From an uncultured Acidobacteriota bacterium (GTDB lineage: Bacteria; Acidobacteriota; UBA6911; RPQK01; JAPXNP01), in NCBI GenBank assembly GCA_963777605.1, contig CAVZRV010000007.1, forward strand, positions 928,001-992,000: DNA of 64,000 nucleotides, read 5' to 3'. This document shows, piece after piece, positions 15,309 through 29,717 of this stretch. The translations under genes and the position numbers were made by a program. Position 1 is the first letter of the stretch. Each line of letters begins with the position of its first letter. The notes beneath the pieces were generated by a model. That model was not told the DNA's origin. It saw nothing but the letters and a program-made list of their open reading frames with translations, and made no database searches.

Positions 15309-16202
15309 ATGAGAGTCATCGTGAACGCGACGGCGGGAAAGGGAACCGCCCGGCGCCTCCTTCCCGAGGTCCGGGGTCTCCTCGACCGTGAGTTTCCCGG
15401 GTATGAGTTGGCGACAACCGAAGGTCCCGGTCACGCAGAGGTGCTTGCCCGAGAGAGCGCCGCGCGCGGAGAGTCCCTTGTAATTGCCATGGGAGGGGAC
15501 GGAACCCTATCGGAGGTAGTCAATGGACTCGCGGGTTCAAAAACCGCCCTGGTGATCGTACCCGTTGGCACGGGGAATGATGTAGCCCGCACGTTGAAAA
15601 TCCCGGTCAACCGCCCGGTTGAGGCCCTAAAGGTAATTAGTAACGGCGCTCCCCGTTCCATCGATCTGGGCTGGGATGGTTCTCGTTACTTCGTTTCACT
15701 GCTCGGTGTGGGCTTCCCCGCTGTCGTCGCAGCCGAGGCGAATCGGCAACATCACTTTGGTGGCACCCTCGCATTCAGCTTCTCCGTTTATCGCAGAATT
15801 TCCGAGATGCGGCCTGCCAGGGTAGAAATCGTGATTGACGGAAACAGGGTTGAATTGGAATGTACTTCGATCTTGGTCCAGAATACCCCTTTCACGGGAG
15901 GTGGCCTGCGGGTGGCTCCCCACGCCAGGGTGGATGATGGTCTGTTGGACGTGGTGGTTGTGGACAATATCGGTAAGATGAATCTTCTGTGGAACTTCCC
16001 ACGGTTATACAGGGGAACGCACGTGGCCAATCCGCATTTCCATATGTTTCGTTGTCGCGACCTTGAACTCGCAACAGAACCCCCAATGGCCATGACGCTC
16101 GATGGTGATCCCTATGGTGTTTCCCCGGTGCGCGTGCAAGTCGTTCCTGCTGCCGTGACTGTGCTTGTTCAAAGGGAAAAAGAGGTGAGGCGTGAGAATT
16201 AG
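15309..16202 (+). CDS. Diacylglycerol/lipid kinase family protein (YegS/DagK/BmrU)
   Basis: VNATAGKG, GGDGTLSEV, PVGTGNDVAR, GGG..VAP, DDGLLDV, DGD. Confidence 0.93.
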   Translation: MRVIVNATAGKGTARRLLPEVRGLLDREFPGYELATTEGPGHAEVLARESAARGESLVIAMGGDGTLSEVVNGLAGSKTALVIVPVGTGNDVARTLKIPVNRPVEALKVISNGAPRSIDLGWDGSRYFVSLLGVGFPAVVAAEANRQHHFGGTLAFSFSVYRRISEMRPARVEIVIDGNRVELECTSILVQNTPFTGGGLRVAPHARVDDGLLDVVVVDNIGKMNLLWNFPRLYRGTHVANPHFHMFRCRDLELATEPPMAMTLDGDPYGVSPVRVQVVPAAVTVLVQREKEVRREN

Positions 16203-27957: not shown

Positions 27958-29717
27958 TCCGCGAACACGTTGTTTCGAATGCCGAACACGTTGGTCGGAT
28001 CGCAGCTTTGCTTGACTCCCTTGAGCAGCTCGATCGCCGGTTCCGACATGGTCTGATTTACGAACCGGGCACGCAGCTTGCCGACTCCGTGGTGATGGGA
28101 GATGGAGCCTCCGTGAGCCAGAATCGTTTCCCGCAAAGACTTCTCGATCTCGCCGAACACGACCTCGGGCCGGGCGACGCCCTTGGTATAGAGGCCGTAC
28201 ATGAAGTAGATGCAAACCCCGGTGTGGTAGAGCTGGGTCACGCGGTAGGAGACATAGAACTTTCCGGGCAGCTTGTGGAGCTTGTGCTGCTCGGCGGCGC
28301 GTTCCTCGACGGCATGGCAAACGTCGTGAATCTTTGACCAGGGAACGGAGGTCTCAAAGGTCTCGCCGATGACGTGGAACTGGGAGACGAAATCCCGGAT
28401 GTAGGCGATGGCATAGGTCAACATGTAGCCGCGTCGGCCGGCATCGGAACCGGCTGCAATCCCGTGGTATTTTGCGGCCAGCTTGTTGAGATGCGATTGC
28501 TGGTAATCGACCTCGTCCTGGGTTCCCTCCATGACAATGGTCGCAGCGACCATTTTGTCGGCGTCAAAGCCACGCACCTTGAGAACGTAGAGCTTCTTGA
28601 TCTTCTCCAGCATGGCCGCGAACCCATCGGATCGGCCCTTGAGCGCCATTCCGAACTTGAACTGAACGTTGTCGACCAGGCGGATGCTGGCAGGAATGAA
28701 GTCGGTCTTGGAAAGGGCGTGCAGGAACTCGACGCCCAGCTCGAAATTGGGGAAAACGAGTGAGCCGTAGCGGGTGACGTCCGGGCGTCGGAAAATCTTG
28801 ATGACGGCCCTGGTGATAATTCCGAGCGTGCCTTCGCTGCCGAATGTCAGCAGTTGGGGTTGAATCCCCATGGAAACGCGTGGCAATGCCGCCGAGTGTT
28901 CAACCGTTCCCAGCGGAGTCACCATGGTGACCTTTTCCACCACCTCTTCAATGTTGCCGTAGCGGTTCTTCTTCATGCCGCTGGCATTGGTGGCGATCCA
29001 GCCGCCGAGAGTGGACAGTTCGATGCTGTCCGGCTCGTGCCCGCAGATGAAGCCCTGGCCCCGCAGCTGCTCCTCGAGGTCCATTCCGCGAATCCCGGCC
29101 TGGACACAGGCGCGCATGTTCTCCTTGTCGATCCACTCGATCTGGTTCATGCGCCGCATGTCCACCGACACGATCATCCGCTGCTCGTTTTCCGGAAGGG
29201 TCAGCGACGAGCTCACGCTGGTCCCGCCGCCGTAAGGAACCAGGCAAACGTCGTGGGCATTCGCCAGTTGCACGACCGCTTCCACGTCCGCGTCGTTTTC
29301 CGGATAGAAAACGGCATCGGCACAACGTTCGAGCCGCTCGTAAAGGACCCGGTACACTTCGTCGGTCGTGGTTTGCCCGTGGCTGTGAAGGAGCCGGTCC
29401 GGATCGTCGAAAGAAAGCTGGTCGGCGTTGGTGCGGGTTTCCAGCGCCCGGCAGAAAGCCTCGTTCCGGACCGGAGGGTCGATCGGCTTGTCGGCGAGTT
29501 CCTTCTTGGTGTCTTTGAGATCCAGTGTGACGCCGAGAACGCTTTCCACGTAAGGGAGAAAGTCGTACATCCGGTAGCCGGAGAGGAGGTAGCGCTTGCC
29601 GGTTAACTCGACGCCACCGTCTTCATGAACGACAAACTCGGTGTCGGCAAATCCCCACTTGTGGCCCCACGGTATGTTGTCGAGAGATGTGTTCAAGCCT
29701 TCGCTCTTCTTTTCCAT
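27954..29717 (-). CDS. Alkyl-dihydroxyacetonephosphate synthase (AGPS/ADPS)-like FAD enzyme
   Basis: PYGGGTSV, GHEPDSIELSTLGGWIATNASGMKKNRYGNIE, GSEGTLG, PASIRLVDN, LTYAIAYIRD, GETFETS, ISHHHGVGKLR; GAGGT RBS before ATG 29717. Confidence 0.9.
   Translation of the reverse strand: MEKKSEGLNTSLDNIPWGHKWGFADTEFVVHEDGGVELTGKRYLLSGYRMYDFLPYVESVLGVTLDLKDTKKELADKPIDPPVRNEAFCRALETRTNADQLSFDDPDRLLHSHGQTTTDEVYRVLYERLERCADAVFYPENDADVEAVVQLANAHDVCLVPYGGGTSVSSSLTLPENEQRMIVSVDMRRMNQIEWIDKENMRACVQAGIRGMDLEEQLRGQGFICGHEPDSIELSTLGGWIATNASGMKKNRYGNIEEVVEKVTMVTPLGTVEHSAALPRVSMGIQPQLLTFGSEGTLGIITRAVIKIFRRPDVTRYGSLVFPNFELGVEFLHALSKTDFIPASIRLVDNVQFKFGMALKGRSDGFAAMLEKIKKLYVLKVRGFDADKMVAATIVMEGTQDEVDYQQSHLNKLAAKYHGIAAGSDAGRRGYMLTYAIAYIRDFVSQFHVIGETFETSVPWSKIHDVCHAVEERAAEQHKLHKLPGKFYVSYRVTQLYHTGVCIYFMYGLYTKGVARPEVVFGEIEKSLRETILAHGGSISHHHGVGKLRARFVNQTMSEPAIELLKGVKQSCDPTNVFGIRNNVFAE

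What the first reader, a model, noticed from the sequence alone, without database searches (positions are those of the whole stretch)
15309..29717. Possible complete hybrid ether-lipid pathway within about 14 kb
Seen: lipid kinase, FAR/ligase/ACP/acyltransferase fusion, AGPS-like enzyme and SDR in one region, as two operons on opposite strands separated by unrelated genes. Known: the eukaryotic route needs a DHAP acyltransferase, FAR, AGPS and a reductase, while ElbD is a separate myxobacterial route. Inference: the fusion could supply both AGPS substrates (fatty alcohol and acyl-DHAP), merging two routes usually treated as independent. This bears on the poorly resolved source of ether lipids in Acidobacteriota. 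The proximity could be coincidental.
Basis: inference. Interest (0 to 1): 0.82.

Follow-up and report, generated by a model that had tools for sequence, protein, structure and literature searches.

The report
Hybrid ElbD–AGPS ether-lipid gene set
Two nearby gene pairs for ether-linked membrane lipids, one of the myxobacterial ElbD type and one of the animal-like AGPS type, look from genome comparisons like parts of one pathway in a group of Acidobacteriota, which gives a testable idea of how these bacteria make ether lipids.

Summary
The genes are there as described. A YegS-type lipid kinase overlaps an ElbD-like FAR/acyl-ligase/ACP/acyltransferase gene. About 7.4 kb away on the other strand lies a true AGPS (E 1.4e-158 to mammalian AGPS) whose stop overlaps the start of an SDR.

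One caveat: an extra G at 20146 breaks the fusion inside its acyltransferase domain. Full-length orthologues in relatives and near-identical metagenome contigs lack this break.

Comparative evidence favours functional coupling.
- In the 76 genomes of the window's order, AGPS and the SDR co-occur: 47 have both, 1 has AGPS only, 0 have the SDR only.
- 46 of 48 AGPS genomes carry exactly one FAR-type reductase, the one inside ElbD.
- AGPS–SDR is almost mutually exclusive with a HAD phosphatase plus Zn-ADH pair that otherwise follows ElbD (47 AGPS only, 23 ADH only, 1 both, 5 neither). This needs at least 6 switches on the ElbD tree.
- In other phyla, stand-alone FAR and acyltransferase genes sit directly beside AGPS–SDR.

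Against it: ElbD occurs without AGPS. The two loci are far apart in 10 of the 18 genomes where both lie on one contig. M. xanthus genetics treats the routes as independent. No biochemistry exists.

Verdict: a new variant of known pathways.

The parts
15309..16202 (+). YegS/DAGK-family lipid kinase (297 aa). Its stop overlaps the ElbD start by 11 nt.
   Evidence: Pfam DAGK_cat + YegS_C. TIGR00147 scores 176.3 bits, above the 118.65 cut-off. It lies upstream of ElbD in L004, L007, L009, L010, L012, L028, L047, L048, L049 and L125. No hit upstream of ElbD in L023, L024, L050 or L051.
16192..20166 (+). ElbD-like multidomain gene, first frame (1324 aa). Domains: FAR (NAD_binding_4 aa 14-356, Sterile aa 455-530), acyl-AMP ligase (aa 556-1098), ACP (aa 1131-1196), and the N-terminal half of the acyltransferase (aa 1249-1318, with the HX4D motif).
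   Evidence: Pfam hits. Orthologues in relatives are 54-73% identical, with open frames of 1444-1514 aa.
20146..20147 (+). Frameshift site: one extra G in a GG pair, inside the acyltransferase domain.
   Evidence: PF01553 profile positions 3-67 fall in one frame and 67-131 in the next. Sequence read. 151-nt contigs from two metagenome runs lack one base at 20146. In relatives' loci the two acyltransferase halves are contiguous within single long ORFs.
20141..20527 (+). C-terminal half of the ElbD acyltransferase domain, in the +1 frame (128-aa ORF).
   Evidence: PF01553 profile positions 67-131, E 8.7e-13. 54-72% identical to the C-termini of ElbD in the linked AGPS-type loci.
20529..21479 (-). 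PLP-dependent Thr/Ser-dehydratase-like enzyme (PALP). A conserved neighbour; its role in the pathway is unknown.
   Evidence: Pfam PALP, E 2.7e-71. Found beside ElbD or AGPS in L004, L005, L007, L009, L010, L012, L028, L047, L048, L051 and L125.
21547..22647 (+). Gly-zipper protein (366 aa). Its C-terminal ~165 aa are conserved as a neighbour of ElbD.
   Evidence: Weak Pfam Gly-zipper_YMGG hit, below the cut-off. tblastn hits in L007, L023, L024, L048, L049, L125 and L126.
27148..27957 (-). Classical SDR (269 aa). Its start overlaps the AGPS stop (ATGA), which suggests translational coupling. Proposed acyl/alkyl-DHAP reductase.
   Evidence: adh_short, E 2e-41. NF004825 scores 249.9 bits, above the 215 cut-off. 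The ATG overlaps the AGPS TGA, and the glycine-rich and YxxxK motifs are read directly. An orthologue is present in 47 of 48 AGPS genomes and 0 of 28 others.
27954..29717 (-). Alkyl-dihydroxyacetonephosphate synthase (AGPS), 587 aa from the ATG at 29717. The listed ORF runs up to a TTG at 29858.
   Evidence: phmmer E 1.4e-158 to guinea-pig AGPS 4bby, aligned over residues 64-629 of the query and 93-656 of the chain. FAD_binding_4 + FAD-oxidase_C. Start site.
29846..31372 (-). PCMT (29846-30511) and RNase HII (30512-31372). These are conserved synteny anchors upstream of AGPS and are not part of the pathway.
   Evidence: Pfam. The same order is seen in L004, L005, L007, L025 and L026. It is also seen near ElbD without AGPS alongside in L049 (no AGPS in that genome) and L050 (AGPS elsewhere on the chromosome).

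Best explanation
The region holds two modules of one ether-lipid pathway.

Module 1 is kinase-ElbD. ElbD activates a fatty acid (ligase), loads it on its own ACP, reduces it with its FAR domain to the fatty alcohol, and uses its acyltransferase domain to make an acyl-glycerone phosphate (acyl-DHAP) or a related ester.

Module 2 is AGPS-SDR. AGPS exchanges the acyl group of acyl-DHAP for the fatty alcohol, forming the ether bond. The SDR then reduces 1-alkyl-DHAP to 1-alkyl-glycerol-3-phosphate, which enters ordinary phospholipid synthesis.

In this acidobacterial order AGPS-SDR has no FAR/acyltransferase partner of its own and relies on ElbD. It takes the place of the HAD phosphatase + Zn-ADH pair that accompanies ElbD in sister genomes.

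Shown here: the gene identities, the conserved AGPS active-site positions, the coupling of AGPS with the SDR, and the distribution patterns. Inferred: every substrate, the direction of flow, and the role of the kinase (perhaps phosphorylation of alkylglycerol or alkyl-acylglycerol).

In this particular assembly the acyltransferase domain is interrupted by a 1-base insertion. This is either an assembly error or a recent lesion.
For: (1) AGPS identity. E 1.4e-158 to solved mammalian AGPS. The positions aligned with guinea-pig R419, R566, Y578 and H615-617 are conserved (the residue roles are recalled, not from a call).

(2) AGPS-SDR coupling. The stop and start overlap as ATGA. The two genes are adjacent in 19 of 25 related loci. 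Across the order, 47 genomes have both, 1 has AGPS only, 0 have the SDR only and 28 have neither. In 7-8 of 8 independent pairs the SDR changes together with AGPS.

(3) Only one FAR. G000 has a single strong NAD_binding_4 match (230.5 bits, next best 48.7), and it is ElbD's. 46 of 48 AGPS genomes of the order have a FAR match, one per genome, always inside an ElbD-size frame except where a contig or a break cuts it. In the phylum sample, 20 of 21 true-AGPS genomes carry a full-length ElbD-like gene. The 21st (G268) has a stand-alone FAR next to AGPS and an acyltransferase beside it.

(4) Rosetta-stone operons. In the Neomarinimicrobiota-labelled locus L017, FAR, acyltransferase and AGPS have overlapping ORFs and the SDR follows 68 nt after AGPS. 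L014-L016 have acyltransferase-AGPS-SDR.

(5) Complementarity. AGPS versus the ElbD-linked Zn-ADH gives 47 AGPS only, 23 ADH only, 1 both and 5 neither, out of 76. At least 6 changes are needed on the ElbD FAR-domain tree, and 0 of 500 label shuffles are as low. The ADH goes the opposite way in 5-6 of 8 independent pairs and never the same way. G000 has no orthologue of the ADH (best E 2e-15, 30% identity) or of the HAD (no match at 1e-5).

(6) Linkage. The loci are within 8 kb in 8 of 18 genomes where both lie on one contig, in three different arrangements.

G049 is an unpublished genome counted in these tallies (AGPS-, ADH+, HAD+, FAR+). Without it the ADH-only cell is 22 of 75.
Against: - ElbD occurs without AGPS in 23 order genomes with the ADH, and in G416 and G424, where neither partner pair was found. 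ElbD therefore does not need AGPS.
- In M. xanthus, loss of elbD removes most ether lipid while loss of the AGPS gene has a minor effect. AGPS there has its own FAR-acyltransferase partner, MXAN_1675 (PMC9131029 and PMC13012113, passages read).
- For M. xanthus ElbD, no acyltransferase activity and no fatty alcohol were detected in vitro. An aldehyde product was proposed instead (PMC9131029, passage read).
- AGPS and ElbD are more than 100 kb apart in 10 of the 18 single-contig cases. They are on opposite strands here.
- The acceptor of the acyltransferase domain is unknown. A tree of AT domains did not resolve whether ElbD's AT is sister to the AGPS-operon ATs.
- G000 has four other PF01553 acyltransferase loci that could make acyl-DHAP.
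- Exceptions to the pattern. G412 has AGPS plus a partial ADH at a contig end (88% complete, 6% contamination). G433 has AGPS-SDR and still keeps the HAD. G419 and G420 have AGPS-SDR but no FAR was found (90% and 75% complete).
- The acyltransferase domain is frameshifted in this assembly.
Confidence: 0.55

Rival explanations
1. Two independent ether-lipid routes lie near each other, as is assumed for M. xanthus. ElbD completes its own AGPS-independent route with unlinked helpers. AGPS-SDR takes its fatty alcohol and acyl-DHAP from other enzymes. The proximity is inherited synteny.
For: M. xanthus genetics (PMC9131029 and PMC13159169, passages read). ElbD is present without AGPS in 23 order genomes. 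The block RNase HII-PCMT ... ElbD exists with no AGPS in the genome (L049) and with AGPS elsewhere on the chromosome (L050). The loci are more than 100 kb apart in 10 of 18 single-contig genomes.
Against: No second FAR-type reductase was found in G000 or in the other AGPS genomes of the order. AGPS-type genomes lack the HAD + Zn-ADH pair that accompanies ElbD elsewhere, across at least 6 switches. This is hard to explain if the routes were independent. Proximity is kept in three different arrangements.
Confidence: 0.25
2. In this strain the pathway is decaying. The frameshift at 20146 is real, the acyltransferase domain is dead, and the locus is a pseudogene in the making.
For: An extra G splits PF01553 between two frames. 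All full-length orthologues have an unbroken frame of 1444-1514 aa.
Against: Near-identical 151-nt contigs from two runs of two studies lack the extra base. No other break was seen in the nine neighbouring genes compared with relatives. Several other MAGs of this set show isolated in-frame stops in these genes, which suggests that such defects are common assembly or binning errors. The source reads were not available: the best run holds only 0.09 of the sampled words.
Confidence: 0.3
3. ElbD makes fatty alcohol or aldehyde for wax esters or another product, and the SDR is a fatty-aldehyde reductase rather than an alkyl-DHAP reductase. The AGPS link would then be limited to sharing the alcohol.
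For: FAR-type enzymes feed wax-ester synthesis in many bacteria (general knowledge). An aldehyde, not an alcohol, was linked to M. xanthus ElbD (PMC9131029). The PDB matches of the SDR are generic (best E 3.9e-23).
Against: The SDR follows AGPS, not ElbD, in its distribution (47 both, 0 SDR only). It sits after AGPS in operons that already hold a FAR. The pathway needs a ketone reductase, and none other is linked.
Confidence: 0.1

Closest known systems
Myxococcus xanthus elbABCDE operon (ElbD route)
   Same: One polypeptide with an N-terminal FAR1-like domain, acyl ligase, ACP and an AGPAT-like acyltransferase, as ElbD is described (PMC9131029, passages). ADH-type relatives also have a HAD phosphatase after ElbD, like ElbB.
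   Different: G000 has no HAD (ElbB-like), and no NAD-epimerase genes (ElbA/ElbE-like) were seen flanking ElbD. A lipid kinase precedes ElbD. The partner reductase in relatives is a Zn-ADH/MDR, not an extended SDR. Sequence similarity to M. xanthus ElbD itself was not tested because the sequence was not on hand.
M. xanthus MXAN_1676-1675-1674 operon and eukaryotic FARAT + AGPS
   Same: A true AGPS followed by a reductase. The need for FAR and acyltransferase activities to supply both AGPS substrates (PMC13012113 and PMC9131029, passages).
   Different: No FAR-acyltransferase (FARAT) gene lies beside AGPS or elsewhere in the genome. The only FAR + AT protein is ElbD, which carries a ligase and an ACP between the two domains. 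[quoted passage not shown]
Peroxisomal ether-lipid pathway of animals (FAR1, GNPAT, AGPS, acyl/alkyl-DHAP reductase)
   Same: The same four activities are encoded. AGPS aligns over nearly its whole length with guinea-pig AGPS (E 1.4e-158).
   Different: Bacterial and cytosolic. FAR and AT are fused with a ligase and an ACP. The acyltransferase is a short AGPAT-like PF01553 domain, not a long GNPAT. No PEDS1/CarF-type desaturase was found (but that search had no positive control).
FAR-AT-AGPS-SDR operons in Neomarinimicrobiota-labelled MAGs (L014-L017) and the FAR-AGPS cluster of G268
   Same: The same AGPS (58-59% identical) and SDR (46-49%). FAR is 38% identical to the ElbD FAR domain.
   Different: There FAR and the acyltransferase are separate small genes in the AGPS operon, with no ligase or ACP. 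Here they are domains of ElbD at a separate locus.

Membership tests
AGPS (alkylglycerone-phosphate synthase, EC 2.5.1.26) | FAD_binding_4 + FAD-oxidase_C domains with an N-terminal extension, and full-length similarity to solved AGPS | tested here: met
   Pfam hits at 7.1e-39 and 7e-38. phmmer E 1.4e-158 to 4bby, query residues 64-629 against chain residues 93-656. Next non-AGPS hit E 1.6e-20.
AGPS (alkylglycerone-phosphate synthase, EC 2.5.1.26) | Active-site residues (guinea-pig R419, R566, Y578, H615-H617; roles recalled from the structural literature, not from a call) | tested here: met
   All six aligned positions are identical in the printed alignment.
AGPS (alkylglycerone-phosphate synthase, EC 2.5.1.26) | Exchange of the acyl group of acyl-DHAP for a fatty alcohol | not testable with these tools
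   Needs an enzyme assay.
ElbD-type multifunctional ether-lipid enzyme | FAR1-like + acyl ligase + ACP + AGPAT-like acyltransferase in one polypeptide | tested here: inconclusive
   All four domains are present in order. In this assembly the acyltransferase is split by a frameshift at 20146. Full-length orthologues are intact at 1444-1514 aa, and environmental contigs lack the extra base.
ElbD-type multifunctional ether-lipid enzyme | Sequence relationship to M. xanthus ElbD | not tested
The architecture was matched only against the published description (PMC9131029).
ElbD-type multifunctional ether-lipid enzyme | elb operon context (HAD ElbB, ElbC, NAD-epimerase ElbE) | tested here: not met
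   G000 has no HAD orthologue at E 1e-5. The flanking genes are the kinase and PALP. A HAD follows ElbD in 23 of 76 order genomes, but not in G000.
FARAT (FAR-GNPAT fusion) | FAR fused directly to the acyltransferase, encoded beside AGPS | tested here: not met
   A ligase and an ACP (aa 556-1196) separate FAR from AT. The gene is 7.4 kb from AGPS on the other strand.
Acyl/alkyl-DHAP reductase (functional class; PexRAP/DHRS7B, Ayr1) | NAD(P)-dependent SDR genetically tied to AGPS | tested here: met
   Glycine-rich and YxxxK motifs are read. The start overlaps the AGPS stop as ATGA. Co-occurrence is 47 both, 1 AGPS only, 0 SDR only, 28 neither.
Acyl/alkyl-DHAP reductase (functional class; PexRAP/DHRS7B, Ayr1) | Specific similarity to a characterised alkyl-DHAP reductase | tested here: inconclusive
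   PDB hits are generic SDRs (best E 3.9e-23; 11-beta-HSD1 among them at ~1e-17). No DHRS7B or Ayr1 sequence was available.
YegS/Rv2252/BmrU lipid kinase family | DAGK_cat + YegS_C domains, score above the TIGR00147 cut-off | tested here: met
   176.3 bits against 118.65. Pfam E 1.4e-32 and 2e-39.

The most novel reading that the evidence does not exclude
ElbD is a shared front end: fatty-acid activation, reduction, and acyl transfer to a C3 acceptor. It can be completed by either of two interchangeable back ends, AGPS + SDR or HAD phosphatase + polyol-dehydrogenase-like Zn-ADH. If so, the HAD + Zn-ADH pair (the ElbB-type module) carries out, or is needed for, the still unknown AGPS-independent ether-forming steps of the Elb route. 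The repeated swaps in this order would then be a natural experiment that identifies those missing enzymes.
Probability: 0.3. Interest if true: 0.8.

Novelty: new variant of a known kind. Interest (0 to 1): 0.66.

Why it matters
How aerobic bacteria other than myxobacteria make alkyl ether lipids is unresolved. This bears on Acidobacteriota, which are discussed as sources of ether-bound and branched tetraether lipids used as climate proxies. The papers read here say the role of elb and agps homologues in Acidobacteria 'has not been conclusively demonstrated' (PMC11868695) and call the two myxobacterial routes independent (PMC13159169).

The patterns found here turn this into concrete experiments. 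There is a defined four-gene set to express: kinase, ElbD, AGPS and SDR. There is a clear prediction that AGPS depends on ElbD for its fatty alcohol. There is also a pair of alternative partner modules whose swap could reveal the unknown chemistry of the ElbD route.

My five literature searches found no paper that describes the physical linkage of elbD with agps-SDR, the sole-FAR argument, or the AGPS versus HAD + ADH exclusivity. Supplementary tables of those papers, and Sinninghe Damste et al. 2018 (not held), could not be seen and may hold relevant gene maps.

Tried and rejected
- RNA evidence: no RNA holder was listed for the stretch. The only DNA holders had small shares (0.09 and 0.06) and were used only for the indel site.
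- Promoter and terminator scans of 14.5-32.5 kb gave no more sites than shuffles: 3 against 3.2 and 16 against 18.9. No operon boundaries are claimed from them.
- AT-domain tree (23 rows). ElbD ATs and AGPS-operon ATs each form a group. Their relation to the other acyltransferases is unresolved (long branches, support 80-84), so it gives no support either way for a DHAP acceptor.
- The 1238-aa open frame at the AGPS of G268 looked like a fusion. It is an upstream open frame in GC-rich DNA. FAR is a separate ORF in another frame.
- The ~780-800-aa FAR proteins of other acidobacterial families looked like FARAT. In the two loci examined (L123, L124) the protein is a HAD-FAR fusion with separate ligase genes.
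- The two adjacent PQQ_2 ORFs (24701-25825 and 25653-26687) were considered as a second frameshift. Their profile coordinates do not continue one another, so this was not pursued.
- PF10520 (PEDS1/CarF) was not found in G000, but the search rang in no control genome, so nothing follows.
- PF06050 (the PlsA/Ger-type domain; the family-to-enzyme link is recalled) was not found in G000, with controls ringing in 2 genomes.
- Lorenzen et al. 2014 is not held, so its content is cited only through reviews.
- No structure prediction or complex prediction was run. Neither would decide substrate flow.
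Full report
WHAT IS THERE

The window is G000:C7:928001-992000 of a 6.73-Mb, 53-contig genome (96.7% complete, 5.7% contamination). The titles of the closest public loci say only 'Acidobacteriota bacterium' MAG.

On the + strand, a 297-aa YegS/DAGK-family lipid kinase (15309-16202; TIGR00147 176.3 bits against a 118.65 cut-off) overlaps by 11 nt the start of a 1324-aa ORF (16192-20166). That ORF carries these domains:
- NAD_binding_4 + Sterile (a FAR-type acyl reductase)
- AMP-binding (an acyl ligase)
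- PP-binding (an ACP)
- the first half of a PF01553 acyltransferase domain

On the - strand lie four genes in a row:
- RNase HII (30512-31372)
- PCMT (29846-30511)
- a 587-aa AGPS (ATG at 29717, stop at 27954)
- a 269-aa classical SDR (27957-27148), whose ATG overlaps the AGPS TGA as ATGA

Between the two pairs are a PLP-dependent dehydratase-like gene, a Gly-zipper protein and about 4 kb of other ORFs, including two PQQ_2 beta-propeller proteins.

THE FRAMESHIFT

The acyltransferase domain is split. PF01553 profile positions 3-67 end the long ORF, and positions 67-131 lie in the next frame (20141-20527). The sequence shows a GG at 20146-20147 where one G would keep the frame.
- In the order search, full-length orthologues have open frames of 1444-1514 aa, against 1325 in G000.
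- In relatives' loci the two halves are contiguous in one frame.
- Only two public runs hold parts of this stretch (shares 0.09 and 0.06, two studies). Their 151-nt contigs, each with 4 other differences, both lack one base at 20146.

The extra G is therefore either an assembly error or a lesion private to this strain. The source reads were not available.

IDENTITY OF AGPS AND THE SDR

AGPS matches guinea-pig AGPS at E 1.4e-158 over nearly its whole length. The next non-AGPS structure scores 1.6e-20. In the printed alignment, the positions of R419, R566, Y578 and H615-617 are identical. The roles of these residues are recalled from the structural literature, not taken from a call.

The SDR passes NF004825 (249.9 bits against 215). 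Its PDB matches are generic. Its role as alkyl-DHAP reductase rests on context, not on similarity.

DISTRIBUTION ACROSS THE PHYLUM

In an even sample of 401 genomes of the phylum:
- True AGPS (at least 47% identity, near full length) occurs in 21 genomes. The other 34 of the 55 matches at E <= 1e-40 are at most 36% identical.
- Full-length ElbD-like genes occur in 58 genomes.
- 20 of the 21 AGPS genomes have a full-length ElbD-like gene.
- The 21st (G268) has a stand-alone FAR directly upstream of AGPS and an acyltransferase beside it.

G000 has one strong NAD_binding_4 match, 230.5 bits, inside ElbD. The next best is 48.7 bits. It has four other PF01553 acyltransferase loci.

OPERONS IN OTHER PHYLA

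In L017, labelled Neomarinimicrobiota, FAR (563 aa), acyltransferase (258 aa) and AGPS (591 aa) have overlapping ORFs, and the SDR (279 aa) follows 68 nt after AGPS. L014-L016 have acyltransferase-AGPS-SDR. That FAR is 38% identical to the ElbD FAR domain.

The two activities that ElbD carries in addition to ligase and ACP are therefore the ones encoded next to AGPS-SDR elsewhere. M. xanthus likewise has AGPS followed by a FAR-acyltransferase fusion and a reductase (PMC9131029 and PMC13012113, passages read).

LINKAGE

In 8 of the 25 loci fetched with AGPS, kinase-ElbD or ElbD lies 1.5-4 kb from AGPS-SDR. The arrangements are:
- PCMT-AGPS-SDR-(Gly-zipper)-PALP facing ElbD-kinase: L004, L007. 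G000 has this form with an extra ~4 kb.
- PALP-AGPS-SDR facing ElbD-kinase: L009, L010, L012, L028.
- ElbD-Gly-zipper-AGPS-SDR on one strand: L023, L024.

Among the 48 AGPS genomes of the order:
- 8 have both genes on one contig within 8 kb (G000, G336, G353, G159, G438, G439, G112, G412).
- 10 have both on one contig more than 100 kb apart (G437, G136, G408, G428, G148, G088, G170, G260, G200, G430).
- 28 have them on different contigs.
- 2 have no FAR match (G419 and G420, 90% and 75% complete).

The block RNase HII-PCMT ... ElbD also exists where the genome has no AGPS (L049) and where AGPS lies elsewhere on the chromosome (L050). Linkage is real but partial.

THE STRONGEST RESULT: ALTERNATIVE PARTNERS OF ElbD

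In the AGPS-less relatives examined first (L047, L048, L049), ElbD is followed by a HAD-IB phosphatase and a polyol-dehydrogenase-like Zn-ADH. Across all 76 genomes of the order, G000 included:

| Pair | both | first only | second only | neither |
|---|---|---|---|---|
| AGPS / Zn-ADH | 1 | 47 | 23 | 5 |
| AGPS / HAD | 1 | 47 | 22 | 6 |
| AGPS / SDR | 47 | 1 | 0 | 28 |
| ADH / HAD | 22 | 2 | 1 | 51 |

- The five genomes with neither AGPS nor ADH are 65-94% complete.
- The one genome with both AGPS and ADH (G412; 88% complete, 6% contamination) has only a partial ADH at a contig end.
- G433 has AGPS-SDR and keeps the HAD after ElbD, with no ADH.
- The single AGPS genome without the SDR (G431) has its AGPS cut at a contig end.
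- The ADH lies within about 1.5 kb downstream of ElbD in 21 of the 24 ADH genomes.
- The SDR is adjacent to AGPS in 41 of 47 genomes. It is apart in the five genomes of family f105 and unresolved in G434.

I built a tree of the ElbD FAR domain with 67 ingroup rows. I left out G049 (unpublished), G435 and G444 (partial or split), and the six genomes with no FAR match. Three outgroup rows were added.
- The AGPS-or-ADH label needs at least 6 changes. Shuffled means are 17.5-19.3, and 0 of 500 shuffles are as low.
- Switches occur inside genera: g11 has G407 against G124 and G345; g10 has G112 and G412 against four others.
- Of 8 phylogenetically independent pairs that differ in AGPS, the ADH goes the opposite way in 5-6, the same way in 0, and does not differ in 2-3 (median p 0.031).
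- The SDR goes the same way as AGPS in 7-8 of the 8 pairs (p 0.008).

G000 itself has no orthologue of the ADH (best E 2e-15) or of the HAD. G049, an unpublished genome, is counted in the tallies as AGPS-, ADH+, HAD+, FAR+.

HOW IT MOST LIKELY WORKS

- ElbD supplies the fatty alcohol, because it holds the only FAR. This step is inferred with fair support.
- ElbD probably also supplies the acyl ester that AGPS needs, through its acyltransferase domain. This step is inferred and weakly supported.
- AGPS forms the ether bond. This follows from the family's established chemistry and the conserved active site.
- The SDR reduces the 2-keto group. This is inferred from strict co-occurrence and operon position.
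- The kinase is ElbD-linked in both genome types. It may phosphorylate an alkylglycerol-type intermediate, which is speculative.

The dependence is one-way: ElbD works without AGPS in 23 sister genomes and in M. xanthus.

WHAT IS KNOWN AND WHAT IS NEW

Already in print:
- ElbD and agps homologues in Acidobacteriota, and their co-occurrence in MAGs (preprint 10.64898/2026.06.23.733905, PMC11868695, PMC13159169, PMC10087280; passages read).
- FAR-acyltransferase fusions as AGPS partners (PMC13012113: outline, sections 11-12 and passages read).

The two myxobacterial routes are called independent there. My five searches found no description of the elbD/agps-SDR linkage, of ElbD as the sole FAR of AGPS genomes, or of the exclusivity with HAD + Zn-ADH. 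Supplements were closed, and Sinninghe Damste et al. 2018 and Lorenzen et al. 2014 are not held, so gene maps there may overlap with this.

VERDICT

This is a real, conserved variant architecture of bacterial ether-lipid synthesis. The copy in this window carries a probable 1-base error or lesion.

Noticed in passing
window 22700-26800: About 4 kb of ORFs lies between the Gly-zipper gene and the SDR. It includes two PQQ_2/BamB-like beta-propeller proteins (24701-25825 and 25653-26687) and ORFs with no family hit. The closest relatives' loci (L004, L007) lack it, so it looks like a lineage-specific insertion that pushed the two ether-lipid modules apart.
   Followed up: partly
G000:C35:199240-202501 (L042): A second ligase-ACP-acyltransferase protein without a FAR domain (905-aa open frame, 33% identical to ElbD aa 559-1322) sits next to a divergent Zn-ADH/MDR gene. 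Similar ~900-aa proteins occur in most genomes of the phylum sample.
   Followed up: no
L123:5829-8171 and L124:5370-7709: In other acidobacterial families, ~780-aa proteins fuse a HAD-like N-terminus to a FAR domain. They are followed by further NAD-binding and AMP-ligase genes. This is a split, differently fused version of the elb module set, in genomes without a true AGPS.
   Followed up: partly
L029 (G268:C20:20000-37000) 7708-13407: This cluster has FAR (9441-11111) and AGPS on one strand. An acyltransferase lies on the other strand, and a 499-aa protein with a C-terminal HAD domain lies upstream. No adjacent SDR orthologue was found.
   Followed up: partly
L009 (record titled Thermoguttaceae bacterium MAG): Its PALP-AGPS-SDR ... 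ElbD-kinase locus has the same arrangement as the acidobacterial loci L012 and L028, with similar identities to the window's proteins. The contig or bin may be mislabelled. PALP and PCMT there are each split into two tblastn pieces.
   Followed up: no
G439, G445, G433 (AGPS); G318, G076, G406, G049 (Zn-ADH); G345, G309 (HAD): Isolated in-frame stops appear inside otherwise well-conserved pathway genes in several MAGs. This suggests that single-base assembly errors are common in this set, which bears on how to read the frameshift in G000.
   Followed up: no
L125 (G433:C167:1-9000): kinase-ElbD-HAD is followed directly by PALP and Gly-zipper, with no Zn-ADH, in a genome that also has AGPS-SDR on another contig. 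This may be an intermediate state between the two partner sets.
   Followed up: partly
L021, L032, L053 (Chloracidobacterium-labelled locus and family f39): AGPS there (46-48% identical) has no adjacent orthologue of the SDR. In L053 a HAD lies about 5 kb from ElbD. The partner rules seen in the window's order may not hold in that clade.
   Followed up: no
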